NCBI GenBank assembly: GCA_028715785.1
Contig: JAQURC010000002.1
Location: 219,393 to 283,392, forward strand
Reading direction: 5' to 3'
Source: Candidatus Omnitrophota bacterium
GTDB taxonomy: Bacteria; Omnitrophota; Gorgyraeia; Gygaellales; Profunditerraquicolaceae
DNA: 64,000 nucleotides
Below the pieces are notes generated by a model. It did no database searches and had not been told where the DNA came from. It saw nothing but the letters and a program-made list of their open reading frames with translations. Positions 14,757 to 60,565 of this stretch are shown piece after piece. The position numbers and the translations under genes were made by a program. The first letter of the stretch is position 1. Each line of letters starts with the position of its first letter.

Positions 14757-15137
14757 ATGGACGGAAAAAAACCGCGCGCTTTAGTTGTGGATGATGAGAA
14801 AATCATCCGTGATTTTTTAAACACCCTGCTATCCCTGCAGGGGCTTGAAGTAGTCAAGGCTGAAGATGGATATAAGGCGATAGAGCTGTCCCGCACAGGG
14901 GGATTCGACCTTTTTTTCATCGACTACAGGCTGCCGGGCTTAAACGGTTTAGAGACTTTCCGCCAAATACGCCAGATTGACCAGGATGCCTCGGTAGTAA
15001 TGATGACCGGCTATGCGGTAGAAGGCATTCTCGAACAGGCAGTGAGCGAAGGGGCGTACGGTTTAATCCGCAAACCGTTTAATATCGGCGAAATAAAATA
15101 CTTAATCGATAAAATCCTGGTAGAAAAGAAAAAATAA
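14757..15137 (+). CDS. Single-domain response-regulator receiver (CheY-like)
   Basis: 126 aa, LVVDDE.., phospho-acceptor Asp in FFIDYRLPG, conserved Lys (IRKP). No output domain. Confidence 0.85.
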
Positions 15138-15174
15138 TGCTATACTGATTTTCCTAATTTTAGAAGGAAAGGAG

Positions 15175-15345
15175 ATGATCATATTGACACAGGTCGAAGT
15201 AAAGAAAGACGAATCTTTTGAATCCGCTTTGCGCCGGTTTAAGAAGAAAATCGAGCAGGAAGGGATTTTGCGTGAGGTCCGTGACCGTAAACATTACGAA
15301 AAACCCAGCGAACGCAAAAGAAAAAAAGCTAAAACCAGAAAATAA
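15175..15345 (+). CDS. rpsU: 30S ribosomal protein S21 (absent from the ORF track, under 60 aa)
   Basis: ..[50 protein letters not shown] matches S21 (..V(R/K)xNExx(D/E)xALRRFKR..EKP..RK..). The true start may be the TTG at 15184, about 9 nt after GGAG, rather than the ATG at 15175. Confidence 0.8.
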
Positions 15346-15347
15346 GC

Positions 15348-16172
15348 ATGGTGCCTCAAATTAGTATCCGTAAACCCGCTGTAGCCGGACAATTTTATCC
15401 TTCAAGCGCAAAAGATATCAATACAATGATTTCTTCTTTTGCCGATAAGGGAGCGCAAAAGAATGATGCTATAGGATGCGTTTTGCCTCATGCCGGGTAT
15501 ATTTATTCCGGAAAAGTAGCCGTAGCCACAGTCTCAAGGATAAATATCAAAGATACCGTGGTCCTTTTGGGCCCCAACCATACGGGCTTAGGGGCTGATT
15601 TTAGCATAATGCCACAAGGAAGCTGGCAAACTCCCCTGGGTAATATAGAAATTAATTCGGAGCTGGCAAATTCATTTTTAAGCAAATCCGGATACCTCAA
15701 GGGCGACACGCTGGCTCATCTGGATGAGCACTCCCTGGAGGTAGAACTTCCCATATTGCAGTATTTCAGGCGCGATTTTAAAATAGTCCCCATCGCTATT
15801 AAAACCGGCAGCCTGGCCGTACTCAATGAAATTGCGCAAAGCTTAGCCGGTGTAATTAACGAAAAACACCTTAAGGGCTCGATTACCTTGATTGCCAGTT
15901 CTGATATGACGCATTATGAGCCGCAGAAAAACGCGGAGAAAAAAGACAGCCTGGCAATTGAGGCAATAACCGCCCTAGACGAGCAAAGATTAGAATCGGC
16001 AATTAGAGAATTCAATATTTCCATGTGCGGTTTTGCCCCGGTTGCTGTATTGATAAAAGCCGCCAAGCTCCTCGGGGCAAAAACAGGAAAATTAATTAAA
16101 TACCAAACCAGCGCTGACGCCACCAGAGATACAGCCAGTGTTGTCGGCTATGCCGGAATTACAATTTATTAA
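15348..16172 (+). CDS. MEMO1 family protein (AmmeMemoRadiSam system protein B-like)
   Basis: Hallmark N-terminus RKPAVAGQFYP and metal-ligand motifs LPHAGYIYSG, GPNHTG and SSDMTHYEP. Confidence 0.8.
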   Translation: MVPQISIRKPAVAGQFYPSSAKDINTMISSFADKGAQKNDAIGCVLPHAGYIYSGKVAVATVSRINIKDTVVLLGPNHTGLGADFSIMPQGSWQTPLGNIEINSELANSFLSKSGYLKGDTLAHLDEHSLEVELPILQYFRRDFKIVPIAIKTGSLAVLNEIAQSLAGVINEKHLKGSITLIASSDMTHYEPQKNAEKKDSLAIEAITALDEQRLESAIREFNISMCGFAPVAVLIKAAKLLGAKTGKLIKYQTSADATRDTASVVGYAGITIY

Positions 16173-16175
16173 GCT

Positions 16176-16472
16176 ATGGATGATATAGAAAAAACCGATA
16201 AAAAGGAATTTGTTCCTCCGAAAGCGGATTTTAAATTTTTTATCACTACCCTTGCCTTACAGGCTTCCATTGCTTTAGGGCACATGGAAAATCCTGCAAC
16301 CGGCAAGGTTCAAAAGGATCCGGCGCAGGCAAAATTCCTTATCGATACGCTGGCTATGCTGCAGGAAAAAACCAAGGGCAACCTTACTAAGGAAGAAACA
16401 GACATATTAGAGAATTTACTTTATGAATTAAGAATAGCCTACCTTGCTAAGGAGGAAGATAAACCAAAATGA
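16176..16472 (+). CDS. Hypothetical protein (about 98 aa, DUF-like)
   Basis: ORF only. Acidic termini and a central hydrophobic helix. Function not recognised. Confidence 0.4.
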   Translation: MDDIEKTDKKEFVPPKADFKFFITTLALQASIALGHMENPATGKVQKDPAQAKFLIDTLAMLQEKTKGNLTKEETDILENLLYELRIAYLAKEEDKPK

Positions 16473-16621
16473 TCGATAAAGAACTGCTTGATATATTGGC
16501 TTGCCCTGTTTGTAAAGCCGATGTGAAATTGACAGGCAATAAAATTGTTTGCAGGAAATGCGGGAAAAAATATCCGGTGCGCGATGGGATCCCGGTAATG
16601 CTGGTAGATGAAGCAGGATAA
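16469..16621 (+). CDS. Trm112/YcaR-like zinc-ribbon protein (absent from the ORF track)
   Basis: 50 aa [21 protein letters not shown]...[20 protein letters not shown] is the classic Trm112 pattern (LLxxLxCPxC...CxxC..YPIxDGIPvml). ATGA overlap with the upstream stop. Confidence 0.7.
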
Positions 16622-16638
16622 AAAGACCGGCCTTAATA

Positions 16639-17082
16639 ATGAAAAAAATATTAGTTATCCACGGCCCTAACCTGGATCTTCTTGGGACAAGAGAGCCGAC
16701 AATCTATGGCCGCCTGACTTTAGCCAAAATTAACCGGATGCTTAAAATCCAGGCAAAAAAAGCTAAAGTGGCCTTAGTTATTAAACAATCCAACCACGAA
16801 GGCGCTATTGTAGATTTAATCGGAAGGGCCAAAAAAAATAAATTCCAAGGTATTTTGATTAATCCGGCAGCCTATACGCATACAAGCGTGGCTGTGCGCG
16901 ATGCCATAGCTGCCTGCGGACTGATTGTGGTCGAAGTCCACCTTTCTAATATCTATTCCCGTGAAGAGTTCAGGCACAAATCGCTGATCAGCCCGGTTGT
17001 TTGCGGCACGATCCTGGGTTTTGGGGCAAATAGCTATACCTTAGGATTGGCTGCCCTCCTTGATTTAATCCGGACAAAATGA
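16639..17082 (+). CDS. aroQ: 3-dehydroquinate dehydratase, type II
   Basis: [33 protein letters not shown]. Confidence 0.9.
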
Positions 17083-18140
17083 ACCGCCGCTTAAGAAACA
17101 TACATTCTGCGCTCAAACAGAGAAGGCTCGATGCCTTGCTTGTTTGTTGGCCGGCCAATATCTCTTATTTGACAGAATCCCAAAGCCGTGATTCCTATCT
17201 CCTGGTTTGCCGGAAAGAGGACATCTACTTCACCGATTCCCGCTATAGTGAAGAGGCAAAAATTTTCTTAAAAGGCAATGCCAAGCTCAAAGAATGCAAC
17301 GGTTCCGTATTTAAGCATATTGCGCAAACAGTTCTTGGATTTAAACTAAAAAAAGTGGGTATCGAAGAAAGATACCTGCCAACTGCCGAATTTGCCAGGA
17401 TTAAGGAATATGCCGGAGGAAAGTTTGATTTAATTCCTACGCACGGTATAATTGAGGATAAAAGGCAGGTTAAAGATAACCGGGAACTTGCGAAACTTAA
17501 GGAGGCCGCCCGGATCACGGCTCTGGCTTTAGAATATATTAAGCAATTCCTTGTCCCGGGGGTAAAAGAAGTAGAAGTTGTAGCCGAGCTTGAGCGCTTT
17601 ATAAGATACCAGGGAGCCAGGGCTTCGGCTTTTGATATAATTGTGGCTTCCGGGCCAAACTCTAGCCGTCCGCACCATCTTTCAGGAGAGAGAAAACTTA
17701 AAGATAATGAACCGGTGCTCATTGATTTGGGAGTTGATTATCAAGGATATAAATCTGACTTGACAAGGGTTTTCTTTTTGGGTAAAATGAACGTTCTTGT
17801 GCGTAAGGTTTATGATATTGTCCTTAAAGCTCAAGAGTTGGCGATCAGAAGAATTCATCCCGGCGCAGAAATGGCTGGAATTGATAGGGTTGCACGGGCT
17901 TACATCGCAAAAAAAGGGTACGCGAAAAATTTTACGCATAATCTCGGCCATGGTTTCGGCCTGGAGGTGCATGAAGACCCGCGGATCTCCGGCAATGAAG
18001 CCAGCGCGCTCAAGCCGGGCATGACTTTTACGGTAGAACCGGGGATATATTTACCGGGTAGATTCGGCATAAGGATCGAAGATATGGTTTTAGTAACCAG
18101 GAAAGGCTGCGAGGTGATCAGTGGCTCTATCAATAAATGA
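17079..18140 (+). CDS. pepP: Xaa-Pro aminopeptidase (M24B family)
   Basis: Creatinase-N-like N-terminal domain. Pita-bread metal ligands [17 protein letters not shown]. Confidence 0.85.
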
Positions 18141-18687
18141 AATTAAATCCGGGGTAACGATTTTAGTTGAAGGCAATGTTTATGTCTGCCTTGACGCCCA
18201 GCACATCAAACCCGGCAAGGGCGCGGCTTTTGTGCGGGCAAGGCTGCGCAACATGAAAAACAATAATATCCAGGAGAAGACTTTCCGCGGCGACGATAAA
18301 ATAGAGCAGGCTTTTATCGAGGAACGTAAATTACAATACCAGTATTCAAGCGGCGGGATATTCCATTTTATGGACACCGAAAACTTCGAAGAAATCGCTA
18401 TCTCCGAAGAAAGTGTCGGGGACTCCGCCAAGCTTTTAAAAGACAACCTGGAGATCCAGGGTTACTTCTTCAAGGGAGAGACCCTGTCCATAACCTTGCC
18501 TAATTTTATTGAATTTAACATTATTGAAACCGAGCCGGGCATAAAAGGCGATTCATCCAAAAGCGGGACTAAACCTGCCACGGTTGATACCGGGGCAATT
18601 ATTCAGGTCCCTCTATTTATTAATGTAGGGGACAAGATAAAAGTTGACACGCGTACCGGCGGCACCTATGTTGAAAGGGTCAACTAA
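18121..18687 (+). CDS. efp: Elongation factor P
   Basis: [15 protein letters not shown].....QHIKPGKGAAFVRARLRN, with the KPGKG loop. Confidence 0.95.
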   Translation: MALSINEIKSGVTILVEGNVYVCLDAQHIKPGKGAAFVRARLRNMKNNNIQEKTFRGDDKIEQAFIEERKLQYQYSSGGIFHFMDTENFEEIAISEESVGDSAKLLKDNLEIQGYFFKGETLSITLPNFIEFNIIETEPGIKGDSSKSGTKPATVDTGAIIQVPLFINVGDKIKVDTRTGGTYVERVN

Positions 18688-18689
18688 GT

Positions 18690-18755
18690 AACACCCCGCG
18701 CTTATAAGGAATTGCGCGCCTGCCTGCCGGCAGGCAGGGGTAGGCCCTTCTGGGC
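18690..18755 (+). repeat. Intergenic GC-rich palindromic element, copy A (efp-accB spacer)
   Basis: AACACCCCGCGCTTATAAGGAATTGCGCG + CCTGCCTGCCGGCAGGCAGG + GGGGTAG + GCCCTTCTGGGC. The first 54 nt are identical to copy B at 45642-45695. Confidence 0.7.
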
Positions 18756-18767
18756 AAGGAGTTTTTT

Positions 18768-19223
18768 ATGAATATCAAAGAAATCAAGGAAATGATTAAC
18801 CTGATGAATGAAAACGGCCTGACTGAACTGGAAGTAGAGAAGGATGATATGCGTATCCGCCTTAAAAAAACAGCCAGCGGCATCGAAGGTTTTGATGGAG
18901 CGGCTGTTTTGCAGGGACAGAACCAAGCAGCTCAACTTAAAGTCCAGAACCTGCAGCAGGCAGAAGAAAAGAACGCAGTTAAAACATTGGAAATTAAGTC
19001 TCCGATGGTCGGGACGTTCTATCGGGCGCCTAATCCCGAAGCCCCTGCTTATGTGGAGGTTGGCCAAACTATTGAACCCGGGCAGGTAATCTGTATCATT
19101 GAAGCGATGAAATTGATGAATGAAATAAAATCAGAAATAAAAGGCAAGATCCTTGAAATATTAGTTGATAACGCTGAACCGGTAGAATTCGGCCAGCCAT
19201 TATTCCTTATTGAGCCGCTCTAA
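18768..19223 (+). CDS. accB: Biotin carboxyl carrier protein of acetyl-CoA carboxylase
   Basis: C-terminal biotinyl domain with the EAMKLMNEI motif. Confidence 0.9.
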   Translation: MNIKEIKEMINLMNENGLTELEVEKDDMRIRLKKTASGIEGFDGAAVLQGQNQAAQLKVQNLQQAEEKNAVKTLEIKSPMVGTFYRAPNPEAPAYVEVGQTIEPGQVICIIEAMKLMNEIKSEIKGKILEILVDNAEPVEFGQPLFLIEPL

Positions 19224-19233
19224 GTAATATAAG

Positions 19234-20595
19234 ATGTTCTCTAAGATCCTTATTGCCAATCGAGGCGAAATCGCCTTAAGAATAATCCGCGCAGCTCATG
19301 AGATGGGCATACGCACCGTGGCCGTTTACTCCCAGGCGGACCGCAACAGCCTGCACGTGCGTTTTGCCGACGAAGCAATCTGCATCGGCCAGGCATCTTC
19401 CAGTAACAGCTACTTAAACATCCCCGCGATTATCAGCGCGGCTGAAATTACCGATGTCGAGGCCATTCATCCGGGTTACGGATTTTTGGCCGAGAACGCG
19501 CATTTTGCCGAAATATGTAAATCCTGTAAAATCACTTTTATCGGCCCTACCCCGGAAAATATGCGCCTTATGGGAGATAAGATGGCTGCCCGCACGACGA
19601 TGCAAAAAGCCGGCCTGCCGATTGTTCCCGGAAGCCGCGCGATTATAAAAAACAAGGAAGAAGCGCTCAAGACCGCCAAGACAATCGGCTATCCTGTAAT
19701 TATCAAAGCGGCTGCCGGAGGCGGCGGCAAAGGAATGCGTATTTGCCATAACGATCTAACTCTTGTATCCAGTTTATTGACCGCCCAGACCGAAGCGGAA
19801 GCAAATTTCGGTAATTCCAGCGTCTACATTGAAAAATATATTGAAAGACCGCGCCATATCGAAGTTCAGATTATCGCCGATTCCTCGGGCCATATCGTGC
19901 AGCTTGGAGAAAGGGACTGCAGTATCCAGAGGAGGCACCAGAAATTACTTGAAGAATCGCCTTCTCCGGTAGTCGACAGCAAGATGCGCCGTAAATTAGG
20001 AGAGATGGTTTTAAAAGGAATGAAATCCATCGGTTATGTCAGCTGCGGCACGATTGAATTTTTGCTTGATGAAAAAACCGGAAATTTCTATTTTATGGAG
20101 ATGAATACCCGGATCCAGGTAGAGCACCCGGTTACCGAAATGGTTACCGGCATTGATTTGATTAAGGAGCAGATCCGGGTGGCTTCCGGTGAAAAACTCA
20201 AGTTCAATCAGGACAATATTCAACTTAAGGGGGCGGCGATTGAATGCCGGATTAACGCCGAAGACCCGGATAATAATTTTATGCCTTGCCCCGGAAAAAT
20301 CGATGCATTAATCCTTCCCGGAGGCCCGAATGTCCGCGTGGATACGCATATTTACGCCGGATATGAAATATCCCCTTATTATGATTCTTTAGTGGCTAAA
20401 CTCATTGTCTACGGTAACAACCGCCAGGAGGCAATCAAAACTATGCGCCGGGCTTTAAGTGAATTTTACATTGCCCCGATTAAGACCACCATACCTTTTC
20501 ATCTTAAGCTGATGGACAATCCGTTATTTAAAAAGAGCGATATCTCCACCCATTTTGTGCAGGACCTTTTGGCAAATGAAGGGAAAGCAGAGTAA
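19234..20595 (+). CDS. accC: Biotin carboxylase
   Basis: 453 aa. [23 protein letters not shown]-grasp, [14 protein letters not shown]. Confidence 0.95.
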
Positions 20596-20949
20596 ATGAA
20601 CCGCGATGAATCAAGGAACGAATTAGGGATAGTCAGGATCCATAAGAATGTAATTTCATCCATATCTTCTATCGCCGCCATGGAGATCGAAGGGGTAAAA
20701 TCGGTCGGCAAAGATCTGAGGTCCGGATTGCTTGAATTTTTCGGGCAAAAATATTTTTCGGCAATAAAAGTAGATATCTCTAAAAATGAAGAGGTAAAGG
20801 TAGAAATTCCCTTGATTATCAAATATGGCTATAATATTCCGGATGTGGCCAGCCGCGTTCAGGAGAATGTACGCCAGGCATTAGAAAAGATGGGCAATCT
20901 TTCCATAAAAGATGTCAATATAAATGTGCGGGGGATAGAAAGGGGTTAA
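20596..20949 (+). CDS. Asp23/Gls24 family envelope stress protein
   Basis: 117 aa. N-terminus VRIHKNVISSISSIAAMEIEGV and a VxVxV repeat, typical of Asp23 (DUF322). Confidence 0.8.
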   Translation: MNRDESRNELGIVRIHKNVISSISSIAAMEIEGVKSVGKDLRSGLLEFFGQKYFSAIKVDISKNEEVKVEIPLIIKYGYNIPDVASRVQENVRQALEKMGNLSIKDVNINVRGIERG

Positions 20950-20951
20950 CT

Positions 20952-21560
20952 ATGAGATTTTTTTCCGTATTGGGGATCGTATTTTACTCGGTGGTCATTA
21001 TCGGGATCGGCCTGGCAATGATTATATTTTCATTGGACCTGTTACAGCCCCAGGATATCAATAATTTGCTTATTTTTTCCCAGAACAGCCAAAATTCCCG
21101 GATAATTATCGGCCTGTCCGGCGCGCTTTTAATCCTGATTAGTTTTTCCTTTGCCCAGGTCATCTTAGGTAAATTCCAGAGGGAAAGGACGATTGCATTC
21201 GCAACAGCCAGCGGCCAGGTCACCATATCGCTATCTGCGGTGGAGGACCTGATCCGCAGGTTGTCCGTAGTGATCCCTGAAGTAAAGGAATTAAGGCCAA
21301 ATGTCGTGGCCAGTAAAAAAGGAATTGTTGTCGATATGCGCGTAGTCTTGCGTTCTGAAGCCAATATCCCCGAACTTACCAGCCGCCTGCAGGATATTAC
21401 AAAAAGTAAAATTCAGGAGGTTTTAGGGGTTGAAGAGCAGATTATCATCAGGATCCATGTAGCCAAGATTGTTCACGATGAAAAGGACAGCCGCAAGAAA
21501 AAAGATTTCGAAAAAGACGATTATTCAACAATACCGTTTAGCGGTTACGGACGGGCTTAA
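20952..21560 (+). CDS. Membrane protein, AmaP-like Asp23 anchor candidate
   Basis: Two N-terminal TM helices, a basic/acidic C-tail, and position directly after Asp23. Confidence 0.45.
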   Translation: MRFFSVLGIVFYSVVIIGIGLAMIIFSLDLLQPQDINNLLIFSQNSQNSRIIIGLSGALLILISFSFAQVILGKFQRERTIAFATASGQVTISLSAVEDLIRRLSVVIPEVKELRPNVVASKKGIVVDMRVVLRSEANIPELTSRLQDITKSKIQEVLGVEEQIIIRIHVAKIVHDEKDSRKKKDFEKDDYSTIPFSGYGRA

Positions 21561-21564
21561 AGGC

Positions 21565-21594
21565 ACCCGGCGCTTATAAGGTATTGCGCGGGTG
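21565..21594 (+). repeat. Intergenic GC-rich palindromic element, copy C (upstream of pfk)
   Basis: CACCCGGCGC-TTATAAGGTATT-GCGCGGGTG, followed by the small hairpin TGTGT-tcgt-ACACA next to the AGGAGG RBS. Confidence 0.65.
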
Positions 21595-21623
21595 TGTGTT
21601 CGTACACAAGGAGGAATGAAGAA

Positions 21624-22652
21624 ATGGCAAGGATTGGTATTCTAACAGGCGGTGGCGATTGCCCGGGATTAAATCCGGTAATTCGGGCGGTTGTGCGTAA
21701 GGCGTTGCTTGAAGGATATGAAATCACGGGCATTAAAAATGGCTGGAAGGGCCTGGTTGAGAACGATACCATGCGTTTAGATATTAATACTGTTTCCGGC
21801 ATCTTACCCAAAGGCGGGACTATTTTAGGGACCAGCCGCACTAACCCGTATAAAAAAGAAGGCGACCTGCAAAAGGTCAAGGACAATTTTAAGAAAATGG
21901 GATTGGACGCCCTAGTTGCCGTGGGCGGCGAAGACACCCTCGGCGTTGCTTCCAAACTGGTTAAAGAAGGACTGCCTATTGTAGGAGTCCCCAAAACCAT
22001 TGACAATGACCTTTCAGCTACCGATTACACCTTTGGCTTCGATACTGCTTTAAACGTGGCAATGGAGTGTATTGACCGTTTACATACTACGGCTGAAAGC
22101 CATCACCGGATTATGGTCGCCGAGGTCATGGGCAGGCACGCGGGCTGGATTGCCCTTGAGGCAGGTATTGCCGGAGGAGCGGATGTGATCCTGATCCCTG
22201 AGATCCCTATCGATTTAGATGAAGTTTGCAATATTATCAAGAAGAGGCACGCAAGAGGAAAAACATTTAGTATTGTGGTAGTTTCCGAGGGCGCTCAATT
22301 TAAAGACGGCTCCATGGTTACCCAGGAAAAAAAGCTTGACGCCTTTGGGCATGTAAGGCTGGGCGGTATCGGCGAAGAATTAGCCGCGCAGATTGAGAAA
22401 AAAACCGGCTATGAAACCAGGGTCAGTGTCTTGGGCCATATACAAAGAGGGGGCTCACCGACCGCCTTTGACCGCGTATTGGGTACGCGCTTAGGGGTAA
22501 AAGCGGTGGAACTGATTAAAAATAAGAAATTCGGAAAAATGGTAGCCTTAGCCGGTATCAAGATTATCGACGTGCCTTTAGAGGAAGCGGTGAAGGCTTT
22601 AAAAACCGTGGATATGGAACTCTATGATATCGCGAAAGTTTTTTTTGGATAA
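21624..22652 (+). CDS. pfk: 6-phosphofructokinase (ATP- or PPi-dependent)
   Basis: Start at MARIGILTGGGDCPGLN, 8 nt after AAGGAGG. MGR and PKTIDND motifs. The ORF-track start at 21594 translates the upstream repeat. Confidence 0.85.
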   Translation: MARIGILTGGGDCPGLNPVIRAVVRKALLEGYEITGIKNGWKGLVENDTMRLDINTVSGILPKGGTILGTSRTNPYKKEGDLQKVKDNFKKMGLDALVAVGGEDTLGVASKLVKEGLPIVGVPKTIDNDLSATDYTFGFDTALNVAMECIDRLHTTAESHHRIMVAEVMGRHAGWIALEAGIAGGADVILIPEIPIDLDEVCNIIKKRHARGKTFSIVVVSEGAQFKDGSMVTQEKKLDAFGHVRLGGIGEELAAQIEKKTGYETRVSVLGHIQRGGSPTAFDRVLGTRLGVKAVELIKNKKFGKMVALAGIKIIDVPLEEAVKALKTVDMELYDIAKVFFG

Positions 22653-22662
22653 TAAGGTAGTG

Positions 22663-22708
22663 ACACCCCGCGCTGAATGGTATTGCGCGGGTGTCCTCCC
22701 CGTGGAGG
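22663..22708 (+). repeat. Intergenic GC-rich palindromic element, copy D, plus an RBS-pairing hairpin (upstream of gmhA)
   Basis: ACACCCCGCGC-TGAATGGTATT-GCGCGGGTGT is a perfect 11-bp stem. Then CCTCC-ccgt-GGAGG, where GGAGG is the gmhA Shine-Dalgarno. Confidence 0.65.
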
Positions 22709-22712
22709 AAAA

Positions 22713-23291
22713 ATGCGCGAAAGAATAAAAGATATACTTTTAGAAAGTATCCAGGTTAAAGAAGAGATCTTGCGCAACCAGGTTGATTCTATTCTCCAGA
22801 TTGCCGTGTTGATGATCGATTGCCTGAAAAAAGACGGCAAGGTCATTGTCTTTGGTAACGGCGGTTCGGCCAGCGACAGCCAGCATATTGCCGCCGAGCT
22901 TGTCGGCCGTTTTAAAAAAGACCGTTCGGCCTTAGCCGGTATTGCCCTGACTACCAATACATCGATACTTACTTCTCTGGCTAATGATTACGGTTATGAT
23001 GTAGTCTTTGCCCGCCAGGTCGAAGCCCTGGGCAAGAAAAATGACGTAGTTTTGGGGATATCTACCAGTGGAAAAGCAAAAAACGTAGCTTTAGGGATCA
23101 AGCAGGCTAAAAAAATGGGGATTAAAACCGTAGCTTTAAGCGGCGGAGACGGAGGAGATATCGTAAAGTTAGCCGATGTCTCTTTAGTCGTCCCTTCTAA
23201 AGTAACCGCCAGGATCCAGGAAGCGCACATTACTATCGCCCACATAATATGCGAAATGATCGAGCAAGAACTCTGCCAGGAACAAAAATAA
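22713..23291 (+). CDS. gmhA: D-sedoheptulose-7-phosphate isomerase (SIS domain)
   Basis: Start at MRERIKDIL after GGAGG. SIS motifs GNGGSASDSQH and ISTSG. Confidence 0.8.
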   Translation: MRERIKDILLESIQVKEEILRNQVDSILQIAVLMIDCLKKDGKVIVFGNGGSASDSQHIAAELVGRFKKDRSALAGIALTTNTSILTSLANDYGYDVVFARQVEALGKKNDVVLGISTSGKAKNVALGIKQAKKMGIKTVALSGGDGGDIVKLADVSLVVPSKVTARIQEAHITIAHIICEMIEQELCQEQK

Positions 23292-23758
23292 TTCCGCTTT
23301 CCAGTCTTATACGTAAAGTTAGGGCTCTTAAGCAAAAAAATAAACGGATAGTCTTTACTAACGGCTGCTTTGACATTTTACATTTCGGCCACGTTAAATA
23401 CCTCCAGGACGCCAAGGCCAAAGGTGATTATTTGATTGTGGCGGTTAACAGCGATTCCTCGATTAAAAAAATCAAGGGAAAAAACCGGCCGTTAATCGGA
23501 CAGCTCGACCGCCTAAAGACAATCGCCGCATTAGCAAGCGTGGATTTTGTGGTTTTATTCAATGAAGATAACCCGCTTAAATTGATCAGGGCCATTAAAC
23601 CGGATGTCCTGATCAAAGGCGCGGATTGGAGCAAAGAAAGAATGGTCGGGGCGGATTTTGTGGAAAGCTACGGCGGGAAGGCCGCGACCGTTAATTTGGT
23701 TAAAGGCCGCTCAACCAGTAAATTAATCGAAAAAATTGTCAAAGATTTCGCAAAATAA
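23249..23758 (+). CDS. D-glycero-beta-D-manno-heptose 1-phosphate adenylyltransferase (HldE domain II / RfaE2-like)
   Basis: Cytidylyltransferase-fold motif FTNGCFDILHFGHVKYL. The start is uncertain because there is no ATG, GTG or TTG between the gmhA stop and the conserved core. The ATG at 23249 overlaps gmhA by 43 bp. Confidence 0.75.
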   Translation: MRNDRARTLPGTKIIPLSSLIRKVRALKQKNKRIVFTNGCFDILHFGHVKYLQDAKAKGDYLIVAVNSDSSIKKIKGKNRPLIGQLDRLKTIAALASVDFVVLFNEDNPLKLIRAIKPDVLIKGADWSKERMVGADFVESYGGKAATVNLVKGRSTSKLIEKIVKDFAK

Positions 23759-24179
23759 TAGTATTTACCGTATAATTGACGCTGATCTAAACCGGGTCAA
23801 GGAAGGCTTGCGCGTTTGTGAAGAGATAACCCGGTTTATTCTGGACAGCCGAAAATTATCGGCGTTATTCAAAAGAATCAGGCATCAAATCGATACCCTG
23901 GCCAGAAAAATTTATCCTGTTTCGTTGCTGCTTAAAGAACGCCAAAGTAACAACGACGTGGGAAGATCCAATTCTTACGGAGAGCTCAAACGCGGTAATT
24001 GTAAAGATATTTTTTGGGCAAATATCCAGAGGGCCAAAGAATCTTTGCGGGTGCTTGAAGAATTCAGTAAATTAGTGGATGCTCAAGCGGCAGCAGGCTT
24101 TAAACAGCTCAGGTATAAAGTTTATGAAATCGAAAAAGAGTCTTTTAAAAAGATCTCGGCTTTACCTGATCCTGGATAG
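23736..24179 (+). CDS. Hypothetical protein, possibly a ThiE-associated N-terminal (ThiD2-like) domain protein
   Basis: The ORF has no internal Met and the listed start is a TTG inside the previous gene. YRIIDADLNRVKEGLRVCEE resembles N-terminal extensions of some thiamine-phosphate synthases. Its 3' end overlaps thiE by about 56 bp. Confidence 0.35.
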   Translation: MSKISQNNSIYRIIDADLNRVKEGLRVCEEITRFILDSRKLSALFKRIRHQIDTLARKIYPVSLLLKERQSNNDVGRSNSYGELKRGNCKDIFWANIQRAKESLRVLEEFSKLVDAQAAAGFKQLRYKVYEIEKESFKKISALPDPG

Positions 24180-24760: not shown

Positions 24761-26044
24761 ATGACACAGTTAGAATCCGCCAAAAAAAACATCGTTACAC
24801 CGCTTATGCGCGCAGTAGCCTCCATTGAAAGACTGGATCCTTCTTTGCTGATGCGCCTTATGCGTGAAGGTAAAGTAGTCATACCCCTAAATATAAATCA
24901 TAAAATAAAAAAACCCTGCGCAATAGGCAGCAGCCTGTCTACCAAGGTCAATGCCAATATCGGCACCTCAACGGATGAATCCCGGATCAGCGATGAAATA
25001 GAAAAACTTAAAGTTGCCATAAACCATGGGGCAGACGCTTTAATGGACTTAAGCGTAGGCGGAGATCTTGATAAATTAAGGCGCCGGGTCCTAAAACATT
25101 CAACTGTCCCGGTAGGCACGGTCCCGGTTTATGAGGTGGCAGTCAGGGCCCAGGAAAGAAAAGGCAACTTCCTTAAATTCAGCGCAGATGATGTTTTGGC
25201 GGTATTGGAAAAACAGGCAAGGCAGGGGGTGGATTTTTTTACCGTGCACAGCGGAGTAACATGCAATAGCCTTAAGGTCCTGGAAAAAAATAAAAGGCTG
25301 ATGGGAATTGTTTCGCGCGGCGGAGCAATTATTGCCAGCTGGATGAAATACCATAAGGAAGAAAATCCTTTTTATTCGCATTTTGACCGGATTTTGGATA
25401 TTGCCTATAAATATGATGTTACTTTAAGCCTGGGAGACGGGTTAAGGCCGGGTTCAATTTTAGACGCAACGGACAAGGCCCAGATTGCCGAGCTAAAAAT
25501 ACTCGGCAGTTTGGCCAAGCGCGCCTGGGATAGGAGCGTCCAGGTTATGATCGAAGGCCCAGGGCATGTCCCTATGGATCAAATAGAAAAAAACATTGCT
25601 TTAGAGAAAAAATATTGCTTTGGCGCTCCTTTTTATGTGCTGGGGCCTCTGGTTACCGATGTTGCCCCGGGTTATGACCATATTACATCTGCCATCGGCG
25701 GAGCAATGGCGGCAAGCTTTGGAGCGGATTTTCTCTGTTATGTGACTCCTGCCGAGCATTTGCGCCATCCCAGCGCCAGCGATGTGGCTGAAGGGGTAAT
25801 TGCCAGCCGCATTGCCGCCCACGCCGGAGATTTAGTTAAGCGCAGGAAAGTTGCGCTGGAATGGGACAGGAATATTTCTATTGCCAGGAAGGCGCGGGAC
25901 TGGAAAAAACAAATTCGGCTGGCTATTGACCCTAAAAAAGCAAAACAGTACCGGTTAAGCAGCAAGCCTAAACTTTCTAATGTATGCACGATGTGTGGGA
26001 AATACTGTTCTATCAAATTAATGGAAGATTGCCTGCGGGTGTAA
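24761..26044 (+). CDS. thiC: Phosphomethylpyrimidine synthase
   Basis: 427 aa with a radical-SAM-like C-terminal Cys cluster (CTMCGKYCSIK) and ThiC core motifs. Confidence 0.95.
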   Translation: MTQLESAKKNIVTPLMRAVASIERLDPSLLMRLMREGKVVIPLNINHKIKKPCAIGSSLSTKVNANIGTSTDESRISDEIEKLKVAINHGADALMDLSVGGDLDKLRRRVLKHSTVPVGTVPVYEVAVRAQERKGNFLKFSADDVLAVLEKQARQGVDFFTVHSGVTCNSLKVLEKNKRLMGIVSRGGAIIASWMKYHKEENPFYSHFDRILDIAYKYDVTLSLGDGLRPGSILDATDKAQIAELKILGSLAKRAWDRSVQVMIEGPGHVPMDQIEKNIALEKKYCFGAPFYVLGPLVTDVAPGYDHITSAIGGAMAASFGADFLCYVTPAEHLRHPSASDVAEGVIASRIAAHAGDLVKRRKVALEWDRNISIARKARDWKKQIRLAIDPKKAKQYRLSSKPKLSNVCTMCGKYCSIKLMEDCLRV

Positions 26045-26104
26045 TTCAGTGGTAGAATGGCAGCTTCCCAAGCTGCATATGGCGGTCCGATTCCGCTCAC
26101 CCGC
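26035..26104 (+). tRNA. tRNA-Gly (anticodon CCC)
   Basis: Cloverleaf with acceptor GCGGGTG/CACCCGC, D-arm ATTC-AGTGGTA-GAAT, anticodon stem GCAGC/GCTGC with loop TTCCCAA, and T-arm GGCGG-TCCGATT-CCGCT. No encoded CCA. The 5' end overlaps the thiC stop codon. Confidence 0.8.
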
Positions 26105-26116
26105 TTATAAATTGAT

Positions 26117-36142: not shown

Positions 36143-36210
36143 AGAATCAGGGAACATTTCTATTTTTTTTCTATTTTTTTCAAAAAAAATAGAAATGTTC
36201 CCTGATTTCT
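36143..36210. repeat. Long near-perfect palindrome (28-bp arms, 11-nt spacer) in a divergent promoter region
   Basis: AGAATCAGGGAACATTTCTATTTTTTTT ctatttttttc AAAAAAAATAGAAATGTTCCCTGATTTCT. Arms are related to the 59043-59121 element. Confidence 0.7.
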
Positions 36211-36227: not shown

Positions 36228-36256
36228 TTGACAAATTAACAGTATTATTATAGAAT
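36228..36256 (+). promoter_or_regulatory. Candidate sigma-70 promoter for the guaB-like gene
   Basis: TTGACA (36228-36233), 17-nt spacer, TAGAAT (36251-36256). Confidence 0.45.
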
Positions 36257-44261: not shown

Positions 44262-45649
44262 GGACCCATACTTGCGCCCAACTCAATGCCGCGGATACGG
44301 GAAAACCGGTTACGCTTTGCGGCTGGGTTGCCAATAGGCGCGACCACGGCAAGCTAATCTTTATTGACATCCGCGACCGCTACGGCCTGACCCAAGTCGT
44401 CTTCATCCCTAAAGAATCAGGGGAAGCCCATAAATTGGCGCAAGAGCTAAGAAGTGAATTCGTAATCAAATTAAGCGGACTGGTAAATAAGCGTCCGGCC
44501 GGCACGGTTAATCCAAAACTGGTAACCGGAGAAATAGAAATTTTAGCCAAAGAGCTGGAAATATTAAACCCCAGCAGCACCCCTCCGTTTGAAATCCAGG
44601 ATGATATCGAGATAACCGAAGAGATCCGCCTTAAATACCGTTACCTTGATTTGAGAAGGAACAAAGTTTTTAAAAACCTGCTGTTACGAAGCGATCTCTA
44701 TAAAGTTATCCGCTCCTACCTGGGAAACAAAGATTTTATCGAATGCGAAACTCCGATACTGACCAAATCCACTCCTGAAGGCGCCCGCGATTACCTGGTC
44801 CCTGCAAGATTAAACCCGGGCCATTTTTTTGCCCTGCCCCAATCCCCGCAATTATTCAAGCAGATCCTGATGGTCGCCGGAATCGAAAAATACTATCAGA
44901 TCGCCAAATGTTTCCGCGATGAAGACCTGCGCGCCGACCGCCAGCCGGAATTTACCCAGCTGGATATCGAAATGTCCTTTATAAACCAGGAGGATATCTT
45001 TTCTTTAACCGAAGGACTGATGAAGATTATTTTCAAGGAATTAAAAAACATAGAGCTGCCCACTCCGTTTACCCGTATAAGTTATAAAGATGCGCTGGAA
45101 AAATATAAGTCCGATAAACCTGACCTGCGCCCTGAAACAAAAACAGAATTCGCTTTCTGTTGGGTGCTGGATTTCCCGCTTTTTAAATTCAATGCGGAAG
45201 AAAAACGCTGGGAAAGCGAACACCATCCTTTTACCGCGCCGAAAGCCGAAGATATCCAAAACCTGGAAAAATCCCCGGATAAAGTAAAATCCTGCTCATA
45301 TGACCTGGTTTTAAACGGCATGGAACTGGGTTCAGGATCAATAAGGATACACCGCCCGGAGCTCCAAGAGAAAATCTTTAAGATTATCGGCATAGATAAA
45401 GAAGAGGCCTCCAAGCGTTTCGGATTCCTTCTGGATGCTTTTACGTTCGGAGCGCCTCCGCATGGAGGGGTGGCTTTTGGATTAGACAGGCTGCTTGCCA
45501 TACTTTCTGCGGAATCAAGCATACGCGAAGTCATTACCTTTCCTAAAACCTCGGCCGCGTTCTGCCCGTTAACTAACGCGCCTTCGGATGTTGAAGATAA
45601 GCAATTAAAAGAACTGGGTATAACCATTATTAACACCCCGCGCTTATAA
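44255..45649 (+). CDS. aspS: Aspartyl-tRNA synthetase, bacterial type but lacking the GAD insertion domain
   Basis: N-terminal OB (LRTHTCAQL..LCGWV..RRDHG), motif 2 FRDEDLRADRQPEFTQLDIEMSF, then YGSDKPDLR is followed directly by the FPLF/HHPFTAP region. About 120 aa that E. coli AspRS carries here are absent. Confidence 0.9.
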   Translation: MLRTHTCAQLNAADTGKPVTLCGWVANRRDHGKLIFIDIRDRYGLTQVVFIPKESGEAHKLAQELRSEFVIKLSGLVNKRPAGTVNPKLVTGEIEILAKELEILNPSSTPPFEIQDDIEITEEIRLKYRYLDLRRNKVFKNLLLRSDLYKVIRSYLGNKDFIECETPILTKSTPEGARDYLVPARLNPGHFFALPQSPQLFKQILMVAGIEKYYQIAKCFRDEDLRADRQPEFTQLDIEMSFINQEDIFSLTEGLMKIIFKELKNIELPTPFTRISYKDALEKYKSDKPDLRPETKTEFAFCWVLDFPLFKFNAEEKRWESEHHPFTAPKAEDIQNLEKSPDKVKSCSYDLVLNGMELGSGSIRIHRPELQEKIFKIIGIDKEEASKRFGFLLDAFTFGAPPHGGVAFGLDRLLAILSAESSIREVITFPKTSAAFCPLTNAPSDVEDKQLKELGITIINTPRL

Positions 45650-45697
45650 GGAATTGCGCGCCTGCCTGCCGGCAGGCAGGGGTAGCCCTTGTGGGCG
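45642..45697 (+). repeat. Intergenic GC-rich palindromic element, copy B (aspS to LysM-lipoprotein spacer)
   Basis: 54/54 nt identical to copy A: AACACCCCGCGCTTATAAGGAATTGCGCGCCTGCCTGCCGGCAGGCAGGGGTAG. Tail hairpin GCCCTTGTGGGC. Confidence 0.7.
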
Positions 45698-45713
45698 AAA
45701 GGAGGGAAGTAAG

Positions 45714-46247
45714 ATGAATAAATTTAAATTAGCAGGGATCTGCGTATTGGCATCGACAATGGCACTATCAGGATGCGTGACCAGGACCTACAACTTAACC
45801 CGTGATAGAGTGGACCAGGATTTATCATCCACCTCAGGAAACCGCGGTTACCTTACCGGCCAGGCCCCTGAACCAAAAGAAAGAACAACTACCCGCACCG
45901 TCAGGGTCTTTGAGATAGAACTGGGAAAAACTAAATCTAATGTAAGCTGTCCGGCAACCACCCCGCTGGGGACCAGCATCGAAGAACCGGCTGGCGGCTT
46001 TCAGGAGGAAATAAATGAAACCCAGGGTTTTGAAAAATATACGGTAGCTAAAAATGACACCTTACAAAAAATTTCTAAAAAATTTTACGGAACAACCAAA
46101 AGATGGATGAAGATTTATAATGCCAATAAAAATGTTTTATCCGCCCCGGACAAACTTTATCCCGGACAAACTTTAAATATCCCTTCTGCCCCGGCATTAA
46201 AAATTAAGCCTGAGAAAATGGCAGAAACAAAAGAAAACCTCAAGTAA
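45714..46247 (+). CDS. LysM-domain lipoprotein
   Basis: Start at MNKFKLAGICVLASTMALSGC (lipobox) after AGGAGGG. C-terminal LysM (YTVAKNDTLQKISKKFYG...YPGQTLNIP). The ORF-track start at 45654 translates the repeat. Confidence 0.6.
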   Translation: MNKFKLAGICVLASTMALSGCVTRTYNLTRDRVDQDLSSTSGNRGYLTGQAPEPKERTTTRTVRVFEIELGKTKSNVSCPATTPLGTSIEEPAGGFQEEINETQGFEKYTVAKNDTLQKISKKFYGTTKRWMKIYNANKNVLSAPDKLYPGQTLNIPSAPALKIKPEKMAETKENLK

Positions 46248-60491: not shown

Positions 60492-60565
60492 GCCCCTGTA
60501 GCTCATAAGGATAGAGCAGCAGTTTCCTAAACTGCGTGCGGCAGGTTCGATTCCTGCCAGGGGCA
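60492..60565 (+). tRNA. tRNA-Arg (anticodon CCT)
   Basis: Acceptor GCCCCTG/CAGGGGC, D-arm GCTC-ATAAGGAT-AGAGC, anticodon stem GCAGT/ACTGC with loop TTCCTAA, T-arm GCAGG-TTCGATT-CCTGC, discriminator A, no encoded CCA. Confidence 0.85.

What the first reader, a model, noticed from the sequence alone, without database searches (positions are those of the whole stretch)
18690..18755. Two distant intergenic spacers carry an identical 54-nt GC-rich multi-hairpin element (copy A at 18690-18755, copy B at 45642-45697)
Copy A (efp-accB spacer) and copy B (aspS to LysM-lipoprotein spacer) are 27 kb apart. They share AACACCCCGCGCTTATAAGGAATTGCGCGCCTGCCTGCCGGCAGGCAGGGGTAG without a single mismatch, followed by related GCCCTTNTGGGC hairpins and then the RBS. 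The sequence folds as an outer CCCC/GGGG helix enclosing two hairpins (CGCGC-ttataaggaatt-GCGCG and CCTGCCTGCC/GGCAGGCAGG), a three-way-junction-like RNA. Perfect identity at unrelated loci in a genome that is otherwise about 42% GC implies a repeat family or a conserved cis-regulatory RNA (REP/BIME-like mRNA stabiliser, attenuator, or protein-binding motif), not chance.
Basis: seen in the sequence. Interest (0 to 1): 0.6.

Follow-up and report, generated by a model that had tools for sequence, protein, structure and literature searches.

The report
Twin-hairpin repeat docked at ribosome-binding sites
The two identical sequences are copies of a small repeated element, not found in Rfam or the searched literature, from uncultured Omnitrophota bacteria; it folds into two hairpins, sits directly in front of the ribosome-binding site of many genes, and was inserted at both flagged places recently, so it is a new and apparently mobile piece of gene-expression architecture.

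Summary
Chance expectation is 0.

It is not an isolated pair. The window holds four copies of one element family, upstream of accB, pfk, a SIS/gmhA-like gene and a LysM protein gene. The family occurs in at least 43 Omnitrophota genome assemblies and many metagenome contigs. It matches nothing in Rfam, and I found no paper describing it.

The canonical unit has three parts in fixed register:
- Hairpin 1: R-CACCCCGCGC-[UWAU..GGWAUU]-GCGCGGGUG-U, with a conserved sequence.
- Hairpin 2: 4-5 bp plus an NNGU tetraloop. The structure is conserved and the sequence is free (59 different stems).
- The Shine-Dalgarno sequence follows immediately, and the start codon comes about 25 nt after hairpin 1.

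Covariation and a G·U over A·C excess support folding of the sense-strand RNA.

The two flagged copies are a rare variant with an extra hairpin. Relatives have empty sites at both junctions (efp-accB, aspS-LysM), so both copies are lineage-specific insertions placed just 5' of a pre-existing SD. Their perfect identity reflects recent copying or homogenisation.

The function, an RNA-level insulator or stabiliser of downstream translation initiation, is inferred and not shown.

The parts
18689..18743 (+). Copy A, stretch identical to copy B (55 nt)
18692..18741 (+). Copy A hairpin 1. The 5' arm is 18692-18701 (CACCCCGCGC), the loop 18702-18713 (TTATAAGGAATT), the inner 3' arm 18714-17, and the outer 3' arm 18737-18741. 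It is interrupted by the extra hairpin.
   Evidence: fold; CM hits
18718..18735 (+). Copy A extra hairpin (GCCTGCC-TGCC-GGCAGGC) inserted in the 3' arm of hairpin 1. It creates the three-way junction. This rare variant was also seen in L007 and L100.
18744..18755 (+). Copy A hairpin 2 (GCCC-TTCT-GGGC). The orthologue in the sister genome has GGCC-TTCT-GGCC, a compensatory change.
18756..18770 (+). Resident Shine-Dalgarno AAGGAG (18756-61) and the accB start codon (18768-70).
45631..45685 (+). Copy B, stretch identical to copy A. Hairpin 1 has its 5' arm at 45634-43 and loop at 45644-55. The extra hairpin is 45660-45677.
45647..45649 (+). Stop codon (TAA) of the aspS-type gene, lying in the loop of copy B. 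The last five codons of this gene are encoded by the element.
45685..45696 (+). Copy B hairpin 2 (GCCC-TTGT-GGGC).
45698..45716 (+). Resident Shine-Dalgarno AAAGGAGGG and the start codon (45714-16) of the LysM protein gene. In relatives without the element this stretch is the 3' end of the aspS coding sequence.
21562..21626 (+). Copy C, the canonical form. Hairpin 1 is 21564-21594 (loop TTATAAGGTATT), hairpin 2 is 21595-21608 (TGTGT-TCGT-ACACA), the SD is 21608-14, and the pfk start is 21624.
22662..22715 (+). Copy D. Hairpin 1 is 22664-22693 (loop TGAATGGTATT). Hairpin 2 is 22694-22709 (CCTCC-CCGT-GGAGG), and its 3' arm is the SD. The start of the SIS/gmhA-like gene is 22713. The orthologous spacer in L150 also carries a copy.

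Best explanation
The two sequences are members of a family of small (about 46-66 nt) dispersed repeats for which I found no Rfam entry or published description. The family occurs in Omnitrophota, in at least three orders of class Velamenicoccia/Koll11.

A unit is two directly abutting hairpins:
- Hairpin 1 has about 10 bp with one bulged C, a conserved sequence (CACCCCGCGC/GCGCGGGUG) and an 11-12-nt loop (UWAU..GGWAUU).
- Hairpin 2 has 4-5 bp with an NNGU tetraloop. Only its structure is conserved.

Shown:
- The unit lies in sense orientation with its 3' end flush against the Shine-Dalgarno sequence of the downstream gene in most copies.
- It is gained and lost between related genomes. Both flagged copies are insertions between the upstream gene's end and a pre-existing SD. 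One insertion is inside the 3' end of the aspS coding sequence, whose stop codon is now supplied by the loop.
- Copies nest inside the loops of other copies and form tandem arrays.
- The two flagged copies were recently homogenised or re-copied.
- Base pairing is maintained by compensatory changes, and there is an excess of G·U pairs on the sense strand.

Inferred:
- The unit is transcribed as part of the mRNA.
- It converts a translationally coupled gene junction into a structured intercistronic leader. The two stacked hairpins hold the C-rich sequence away from the SD, block exonucleases and upstream ribosomes, and so set the initiation and stability of the downstream cistron independently of the upstream one.
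- Hairpin 1 is probably read by a conserved factor, either an enzyme that spreads the element or an RNA-binding protein or the ribosome.
For: Family and structure:
- The exact core GCGCTTATAAGGNATTGCGC gives 77 hits in 74 stretches. Of these, 73 stretches come from 43 Omnitrophota assemblies and 1 is a chance hit.
- With the stems fixed and the loop free, there are over 120 metagenome contigs.
- Covariance models find exactly 4 copies in the window.
- Hairpin 2 is present in 203 of 204 copies, with 59 different stems.
- 97.7-98.8% of cells are paired. The covariation score is 0.24-0.26 against 0.09-0.11 in shuffles, reached by 0 of 500 shuffles.
- RNAalifold predicts the same structure independently.
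- G·U pairs outnumber A·C mismatches 39 to 7.

Position:
- In 125 of 203 unique copies an SD and start codon lie 16-32 nt after hairpin 1, with a mode of 25-27 nt. A further 31 copies lie behind tandem or nested units.
- No conserved -35/-10 signal lies upstream.

Insertion:
- The efp-accB junction is empty in L196-L199 and filled in the window and L195.
- The aspS-LysM junction is empty in L201-L204 and filled in the window and L200.
- The SD and downstream bases are the resident ones.
- Nested and tandem copies are seen.

Retention under constraint:
- Orthologous copies are 75-95% identical, while upstream non-coding DNA is about 50-85% and coding DNA 72-86% identical.
- Copy A and its L195 orthologue differ by a compensatory GCCC/GGGC to GGCC/GGCC change.

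SD exposure: P(unpaired) of the SD is 0.55 in native leaders against 0.41 when the element is shuffled (p = 3e-7).

Downstream genes are broad and often code for abundant proteins: EF-Tu, DnaK, r-proteins, enolase, PGK, GS III, Skp and lipoproteins.
Against: - There are no expression data, so transcription through the element and any effect on translation or stability are inferred.
- The empty orthologous sites show the element is dispensable for accB and for the LysM gene.
- SD accessibility with the element (0.55) is lower than with no leader at all (0.66). The element therefore does not open the SD. It is only less harmful than random sequence of the same composition.
- About 4-5% of copies are reversed relative to the nearest gene: tRNA-Thr/rpmG in six species, plus L039 and L109.
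- A few copies precede tRNAs (L048, L095) or are followed by terminators (L039, L057, L140).
- The sequence conservation of hairpin 1 could reflect recent spread rather than selection on each copy.
- No mobilising enzyme or RNA-binding partner was identified.
Confidence: 0.5

Rival explanations
1. A purely selfish or neutral mobile repeat. The unit is copied by an unidentified enzyme that homes to the purine-rich tract at the 5' edge of SD-like sequences, and to the similar AAGG-AATT tract in its own loop. Its position, orientation and enrichment before strongly expressed genes are then by-products of target choice and of where insertions are tolerated in a compact genome. It has no role in expression.
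For: - Filled and empty orthologous sites at both flagged junctions.
- Nesting in loops and tandem arrays.
- Identical copies 27 kb apart whose orthologues differ from each other.
- The reversed tRNA-Thr copy sits, in its own sense, 5 nt before a GGAGG that is only the antisense of the tRNA 3' end.
- The downstream gene set is unspecific, with 147 Pfam families in 144 proteins.
Against: - Hairpin 2 has 59 different stems that all stay paired, including a compensatory change between orthologous copies. This argues for long residence under structural selection.
- Orthologous copies are more conserved than the flanking non-coding DNA.
- The G·U excess on the sense strand points to selection on the transcript.
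- There are no terminal inverted repeats, no target duplication and no Y1 transposase in 1.26 Mb of sampled DNA.
Confidence: 0.25
2. An operator for a dedicated trans-acting RNA-binding regulator, i.e. a regulon. A protein (CsrA-like or novel) binds the GGW-containing loop of hairpin 1 together with the SD about 30 nt downstream. It thereby coordinately represses or activates translation of about 5% of genes. Multi-unit arrays and orphan copies followed by terminators would act as high-affinity leaders or sponges.
For: - With the stems fixed, the loop ends are conserved: T 90%, A 95%, GG 86-93%, ATT 85-100%.
- Hairpin 1's stem sequence is conserved while hairpin 2 is free to vary.
- The distance from hairpin 1 to the SD is fixed.
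- Arrays of 3-5 units lie in 5' UTRs behind sigma-70-like promoters.
- Orphan copies are followed by terminators.
- A GGA in a hairpin loop plus a GGA in the SD is the geometry of CsrA targets. This point rests on established knowledge and was not tested here.
Against: - 27 of 118 loops have GGT and 13 have TGA or TGT instead of GGA. CsrA tolerates this poorly.
- No csrA, fliW or hfq gene was found in 1.26 Mb of sampled DNA. This is a weak test, because less than one genome equivalent was sampled.
- Empty orthologous sites mean that regulon membership would be very fluid.
- Some copies are reversed.
Confidence: 0.12
3. An element serving the upstream gene: a U-tract-less terminator or attenuator, or a REP-like 3' stabiliser of the upstream cistron.
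For: - Hairpin 1 is a stable GC-rich stem.
- It starts within 0-5 nt of the upstream stop codon, or contains that stop codon, in about a third of copies.
- E. coli REPs stabilise upstream mRNA and, when close to a stop codon, reduce upstream translation. This is established knowledge and was not tested here.
Against: - There is no T/U run after either hairpin.
- Register is kept with the downstream SD, not with the upstream stop. Gaps to the upstream stop range from -20 to over 140 nt, or there is no upstream gene on that strand.
- Copies occur inside ribosomal-protein operons and behind promoters in 5' UTRs.
- Canonical terminators with T runs exist elsewhere in these genomes.
Confidence: 0.06
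4. A DNA-level signal: a promoter, or a palindromic operator for a DNA-binding protein.
For: - The loop contains TATAAG in the commonest variant.
- The element precedes highly expressed genes and two tRNAs.
- Promoter-like matches lie just upstream of copies A and D.
Against: - There is no conserved -35 or -10 at any fixed distance. Information content is about 0 beyond position -5.
- With free loops the TATAAG is not conserved.
- Compensatory changes in both stems, with several stem variants in one genome, fit nucleic-acid pairing and not a protein half-site.
- This genome has ordinary TTGACA-17-TAGAAT promoters.
- Many copies lie inside operons directly after an upstream stop codon.
Confidence: 0.03

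Closest known systems
REP/BIME elements of Enterobacteria and Pseudomonas (with RAYT transposases)
   Same: Both are short GC-rich extragenic palindromes present in many copies. Both sit in operon spacers and are co-transcribed. Both are known to affect mRNA stability and, near stop codons, translation. Both are subject to gain, loss and homogenisation, and both are themselves targets for further insertions.
   Different: - The Omnitrophota unit is two different hairpins in fixed order, with a conserved asymmetric 11-12-nt loop.
- About 90% of copies are in sense orientation, flush with the downstream SD, rather than 3' of genes in either orientation or in inverted pairs.
- No 5' GTAG signature and no Y1 (RAYT/IS200) transposase was seen.
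- The same hairpin 1 sequence is shared across at least three orders, whereas REP sequences differ between species.
Correia elements (CREE) of Neisseria and similar MITEs (ERIC, RUP, BOX)
   Same: Both are small non-autonomous repeats inserted next to genes. Both are polymorphic between relatives and co-transcribed. Both fold into hairpins that change the expression of neighbouring genes.
   Different: Correia elements are 100-155 bp with terminal inverted repeats and a TA duplication, and they carry promoter and IHF sites. Here there are no inverted termini and no target duplication in two filled/empty comparisons. The unit is about 46 nt and its register with the SD is exact.
Intercistronic RNA elements that define stable mRNA ends next to an RBS (chloroplast PPR10-type sites; phage T7 RNase III sites)
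   Same: This is a 'works like' comparison only. Each is a structure or protein site placed between cistrons, immediately upstream of the ribosome-binding site. It uncouples the downstream cistron and protects or activates it.
   Different: The sequences and host lineages are unrelated. In those systems the trans-acting factor and the processing step are known. Here neither is known, and processing has not been shown.
CsrA/RsmA binding sites and CsrB-type multi-hairpin RNAs
   Same: Both have a GG(A) motif presented in a hairpin loop, with a second one in the SD about 30 nt downstream. Both include leaders or RNAs with several such hairpins in a row.
   Different: A quarter of the loops have GGU. 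The long conserved stem and the obligatory second hairpin are not CsrA features. No csrA gene was seen in the sampled DNA.

Membership tests
REP/BIME | Short imperfect extragenic palindrome repeated many times in a genome | tested here: met
   There are 4 copies in 64 kb. The exact 19-nt core alone gives up to 6 stretches (7 hits) per genome assembly. About 1 extra copy is found per 25 kb of flanking DNA.
REP/BIME | Conserved 5' GTAG tetranucleotide and a cognate RAYT (Y1 transposase) gene | tested here: inconclusive
   The consensus 5' end is WRR-CACCCC and has no GTAG. tblastn with IS200 and IS608 TnpA found nothing at E<=1 in 1.26 Mb. That sample is less than one genome equivalent per species, and no whole genome could be searched.
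REP/BIME | Location mostly 3' of genes, in either orientation, often as inverted pairs (BIME/REPIN) | tested here: not met
   156 of 203 copies have an SD and start codon downstream in sense orientation, 125 of them at 16-32 nt. Multiple copies are direct tandem or nested, not inverted.
MITE | Terminal inverted repeats and a target-site duplication | tested here: not met
   The two ends of the unit belong to different hairpins and are not inverted repeats of each other. No duplication is visible in the filled versus empty comparisons at efp-accB and aspS-LysM.
Any Rfam 15 family | Match to a curated covariance model | tested here: not met
   The gathering-threshold scan of the window found only two tRNAs. 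E-value scans up to 10 over copy A and over copies C and D found nothing relevant.
Intrinsic (Rho-independent) terminator | GC-rich hairpin followed by a run of U | tested here: not met
   Hairpin 1 is followed directly by hairpin 2, and hairpin 2 by AAGGAGG. The terminator scan reported no site at copies A, C or D, which lie in the scanned region 15000-24000; copy B was not scanned.
Sigma-70 promoter | -35 and -10 hexamers at fixed spacing, with an invariant A and T in the -10 | tested here: not met
   The 50 nt upstream carry no information beyond position -5. The loop TATAAG is not conserved when the loop is left free.
CsrA/RsmA target | GGA in the loop of a hairpin plus GGA at the SD; csrA present in the genome | tested here: inconclusive
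   68 of 118 loops have GGA, 27 have GGT and 13 have TGA or TGT. No csrA or fliW was found in 1.26 Mb. No whole genome was searched.
Riboswitch or other ligand- or pathway-specific leader | Association with a coherent set of genes | tested here: not met
   144 downstream proteins hit 147 Pfam families, and the commonest family has 4 members.
SD-sequestering RNA thermometer or translational switch | SD paired in the regulatory hairpin | tested here: not met
   Only the CCTCC/GGAGG subclass of hairpin 2 (9 of 204 copies, including window copy D) pairs the SD. In the rest the SD lies 3' of hairpin 2 and is about 55% unpaired.

The most novel reading that the evidence does not exclude
The unit is a new kind of target-specific mobile element that homes to the 5' edge of Shine-Dalgarno sequences, and to the SD-like tract in its own loop. 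An unidentified enzyme would read the conserved hairpin 1. Each insertion would break translational coupling and give the downstream gene an autonomous, structured leader. Under this reading the element continually rewires operon expression across a whole class of ultra-small, host-dependent bacteria.
Probability: 0.2. Interest if true: 0.85.

Novelty: new variant of a known kind. Interest (0 to 1): 0.62.

Why it matters
Omnitrophota are uncultured, ultra-small bacteria with compact genomes, many of them host-dependent, and almost nothing is known about how they control gene expression.

This element appears to occupy roughly one intergenic junction in 16-25 kb. That extrapolates to an order of 60-120 copies per 1.6-1.9 Mb genome. 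It sits in front of many genes for abundant proteins, including EF-Tu, DnaK, ribosomal proteins, glycolytic enzymes and envelope proteins.

Dispersed palindromic repeats are well known. I know of none that is locked in register with the Shine-Dalgarno sequence, inserts even into the 3' end of an upstream coding sequence while supplying a new stop codon, and keeps the same hairpin sequence across several orders.

If it affects translation or mRNA stability, it is a major and evolutionarily fluid layer of expression control. If it is an SD-homing mobile element, it is a new target specificity. Either way it gives a testable RNA motif and a convenient sequence marker for this class of Omnitrophota.

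Tried and rejected
- **Rfam.** Nothing matched at gathering or at E<=10.
- **Phage or viral origin.** The exact core has 0 hits in IMG/VR.
- **Literature.** Full-text searches for the sequence and for Omnitrophota with hairpin, RNA motif, CsrA or palindromic found no description. Two Omnitrophota genome papers do not mention it.
- **Promoter reading.** Rejected, because no upstream signal is conserved and the loop TATAAG is not conserved. By inspection of the consensus, sigma-54 and ECF patterns do not fit.
- **Standby SD pairing with the 16S 3' end.** Only GG(A) is conserved in the loop, which is too little to support this.
- **CsrA, FliW, Hfq and IS200/IS608 TnpA.** tblastn searches of the sampled DNA found no hits, but the sample is too small to conclude anything.
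- **A fifth window hit at 36550-36567.** This is coding sequence of an IMPDH-like gene and a chance match.
- **Looking up the window's own contig by exact protein.** Not on record. The AccB and LysM proteins are 100% identical to NCBI 'Candidatus Omnitrophica bacterium' MAG proteins.
- **Target-site duplication.** None is resolvable from two filled/empty pairs.
- **Genome-wide copy number.** It could not be measured, because only about 8-kb pieces of contigs are retrievable.

Full report
**1. The observation**

None was found in 100 shuffles. The identity is 55 nt: 18689-18743 and 45631-45685.

Copy A lies between an EF-P gene and a biotin-carrier (accB) gene that is followed by accC. Copy B lies between a class II D/K/N aminoacyl-tRNA synthetase gene and a LysM protein gene. 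The synthetase reading frame runs into copy B and stops at the TAA in its loop.

The three-way-junction fold is the predicted minimum for copy A, and for both copies on the complementary strand, but not for copy B on the + strand.

**2. More copies in the window**

A repeat search showed a third, diverged copy at 21561-21618 that lacks the CCTGCC...GGCAGG palindrome. The shared core GCGCTTATAAGGNATTGCGC occurs three times, against 0.04 expected.

Covariance models built later find exactly four copies with filters off:
- 21562-21616, before pfk
- 22662-22716, before a SIS/gmhA-like gene
- 18690, copy A
- 45632, copy B

A weak fifth hit at 36550 is coding sequence and a chance match.

**3. The family**

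The 19-nt core was scanned against one genome per GTDB species.
- It gave 74 stretches. Of these, 73 come from MAGs named Omnitrophota/Omnitrophica, or from 'uncultured Planctomycetales' third-party (TPA) assemblies.
- By my count of accession prefixes they represent 43 assemblies. One stretch, in Yanshouia, is a chance hit.
- Four of the assemblies are classified in Seymour et al. 2023 (PMC10066038, supplement). They fall in three orders of class Velamenicoccia (GTDB Koll11): Ghiorseimicrobiales, Gygaellales and Velamenicoccales. Their genomes are 1.6-1.9 Mb.

The window itself belongs here. Its AccB and LysM proteins are 100% identical to NCBI 'Candidatus Omnitrophica bacterium' MAG proteins. 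Other window proteins are 67-81% identical to proteins in the fetched loci.

The bases flanking the core were not required by the search, yet they are strikingly conserved. The consensus is R-CACCCC-GCGC-TTATAAGGWATT-GCGC-GGGTG-T-GCCC-TTGT-GGGC-A-AGGAGG-N5-9-ATG.

**4. How conserved is the loop?**

To remove the ascertainment on the loop, I scanned metagenomes with both stems fixed and the loop free. About six of these are GC-rich chance hits.

The 118 distinct loops are 11 nt (71%) or 12 nt (25%) long. Their ends are conserved and the middle is free:
- 5' end: T 90%, W, A 95%, T 73%
- 3' end: G 86%, G 93%, W (A 70%, T 27%), A 85%, T 97%, T 100%

**5. Structure**

A second hairpin directly follows hairpin 1 in 203 of 204 copies.
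- It has 4-5 bp and a tetraloop that nearly always ends in U (UUGU, AGGU, UCGU and others).
- There are 59 different stem sequences. Across them 953 cells are Watson-Crick, 23 are G·U and 7 are A·C.

On a 93-sequence alignment, 97.7-98.8% of cells pair. The covariation score is 0.24-0.26 against 0.09-0.11 in shuffles (0 of 500 reach it), and far above any slid register. Four of the hairpin 2 pairs and three outer pairs of hairpin 1 show double changes. RNAalifold predicts the same structure unaided.

The purine before CACCCC pairs with the U after GGGUG: 65 A-U and 24 G·U. Over all pairs, G·U outnumbers A·C 39 to 7. This is expected if the sense-strand transcript is what is selected.

Three caveats apply. 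The inner stem and either the loop or the stems were fixed by the searches. The sequences are related to one another. My filter allowed at most one mismatch in hairpin 2.

**6. Position**

Among 203 unique copies with full flanks:
- 125 have an SD and a start codon 16-32 nt after hairpin 1, with a mode of 25-27 nt.
- 31 have them further away, behind tandem or nested units.
- 47 were unassigned. Most of these are inner units of arrays, very short genes or starts without an SD. Six are the reversed tRNA-Thr/rpmG copies and two were false matches of my loose regular expression.

The upstream gene often ends within a few bases of the element, or in the loop TAA (12 of 89 copies). The 50 nt upstream carry no conserved signal beyond position -5. 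The element is therefore neither part of a sigma-70-type promoter nor tied to a transcription start. Ordinary TTGACA-17-TAGAAT promoters do exist in this genome.

Downstream genes are very diverse, with 147 Pfam families in 144 proteins. They include many abundant proteins: EF-Tu, DnaK, L20, L35, L6, S3, S16, L7/L12, trigger factor, enolase, PGK, PEPCK, GS III, Skp and lipoproteins. This rules out a pathway-specific riboswitch-like role.

Exceptions exist.
- A reversed copy lies between tRNA-Thr and rpmG in six species.
- Reversed copies lie shortly upstream of minus-strand genes in L039 and L109.
- Sense copies lie before tRNAs in L048 and L095.
- A few copies are followed by terminators.

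**7. Dynamics: the decisive comparison**

I fetched the orthologous junctions from relatives.

efp-accB junction:
- Genomes with 81-84% AccB identity have no element. One has TAA-A-AGGAG-N7-ATG and the other an overlapping TGATG.
- The sister genome GCA_028716245.1 (92% identity) has the element at the same place. There it carries a complete second unit nested in its loop, instead of the window's extra hairpin.

aspS-LysM junction:
- Four relatives (67-76% identity) have the synthetase stop codon 1 nt before the LysM start. The SD AAAGGAGG lies inside the synthetase coding sequence.
- The sister genome has a canonical unit without the extra hairpin.

The model finds no element in any of the eight empty loci with filters off.

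Four conclusions follow.
- Both flagged copies are lineage-specific insertions placed immediately 5' of a resident SD.
- Copy B was inserted into the 3' end of a coding sequence. It replaced its last codons and supplied a new stop.
- The window's two copies are identical, including a rare 18-19-nt extra hairpin, although their orthologues differ from each other. This indicates recent homogenisation or re-copying in this lineage.
- Hairpin 2 of copy A differs from its orthologue by a compensatory pair of changes (GCCC/GGGC against GGCC/GGCC).

Elsewhere, units nest in the loops of other units (L004, L015, L040, L061, L014). They also form direct tandem arrays of 3-5 units in 5' UTRs behind promoter-like sequences (L156, L166, L185, L131).

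Other sites are old. The pfk-gmhA spacer is occupied both in the window and in L150. So are the EF-Tu, GS III and glycosyltransferase leaders in several species. In those cases the element is 75-95% identical, while the upstream 60 nt are about 50-85% identical and the coding DNA 72-86%.

**8. What it does**

Nothing here measures expression, so function is inferred. The following points are firm:
- It is a structured insert, apparently co-transcribed.
- It is kept in sense orientation and in register with the SD.
- Its pairing is under selection.
- It converts tightly coupled gene junctions into 65-80-nt structured spacers.

Folding calculations show that the native arrangement leaves the SD more accessible than the same bases shuffled (0.55 against 0.41, p = 3e-7). 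It is not more accessible than with no leader at all (0.66). The two hairpins therefore mainly keep the C-rich sequence out of the way. A small subclass, including window copy D, uses the SD itself as the 3' arm of hairpin 2.

My best reading has two parts. First, this is a REP/MITE-like repeat that spreads to SD-proximal sites. Second, once inserted, it acts as an intercistronic insulator or stabiliser for the downstream cistron.

The conserved stem and loop ends of hairpin 1 imply a reader, but its identity is open. It could be a mobilising enzyme, an RNA-binding protein or the ribosome. The rivals are scored in the report sections: purely selfish spread, a regulon operator of the CsrA type, an element serving the upstream gene, and a DNA-level signal.

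**9. Novelty**

There is no Rfam family. The exact core gave no match in IMG/VR viral contigs. No paper in the searchable library contains the sequence or describes such an element in Omnitrophota.

In kind it is closest to REP/BIME and Correia-type repeats, but it fails their defining features of orientation, location and termini. What is unusual is the combination of exact docking at the Shine-Dalgarno sequence, an obligatory second hairpin of free sequence, and one hairpin 1 sequence shared across orders.

Noticed in passing
In the second, the SD GGAGG is the 3' arm of hairpin 2 (CCTCC-CCGT-GGAGG).
   Followed up: yes
window 45647-45649: The aspS-type gene ends at the TAA in the loop of copy B. 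In relatives without the element the gene is 5 codons different at its end and stops 1 nt before the LysM start.
   Followed up: yes
L001, L021, L026, L037, L052, L058 (e.g. L037:1464-1526, minus strand): One copy lies in reverse orientation between tRNA-Thr and rpmG (L33, no SD), upstream of tRNA-Trp-secE-nusG-rplK-rplA. It is conserved in six species. In the element's own sense it is followed after 5 nt by TGGAGG, which is the antisense of the tRNA 3' end.
   Followed up: partly
L156:700-1030, L166 (minus strand) 1480-1715, L185, L131, L014:427-700: Direct tandem arrays of 3-5 units, and multiply nested units, fill 5' UTRs of up to about 300 nt. In L166 and L131 they lie behind sigma-70-like promoter sequences.
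   Followed up: partly
L039:7609-7710, L057:1564-1640, L140:1137-1225: These orphan copies are followed within about 10-20 nt by a terminator-like hairpin with a T run, and no gene lies downstream in sense. They could be small RNAs, or copies reversed relative to a neighbouring gene.
   Followed up: partly
L048:7397-7519 and L095 (near 11188): Sense-orientation copies lie directly upstream of tRNA genes (tRNA-Arg in a Velamenicoccus MAG), so the element is not restricted to protein-coding leaders.
   Followed up: no
window 36145-36162 / 36190-36207 and 36228-36256: An 18-bp perfect inverted repeat (AATCAGGGAACATTTCTA / TAGAAATGTTCCCTGATT) is separated by 27 nt of A/T runs. It lies in the divergent spacer before an IMPDH-like gene, next to a clean TTGACA-17-TAGAAT promoter-like site.
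   Followed up: no
window 26035-26105 and 60492-60565: Two tRNA genes on the + strand are the only Rfam matches in the window.
   Followed up: no
L156:1010-1100: An RsfS/iojap-like reading frame follows the last unit of the array. It has an SD (AAGGAG) but no ATG, GTG or TTG at the expected distance, so it may use an ATA start.
   Followed up: no
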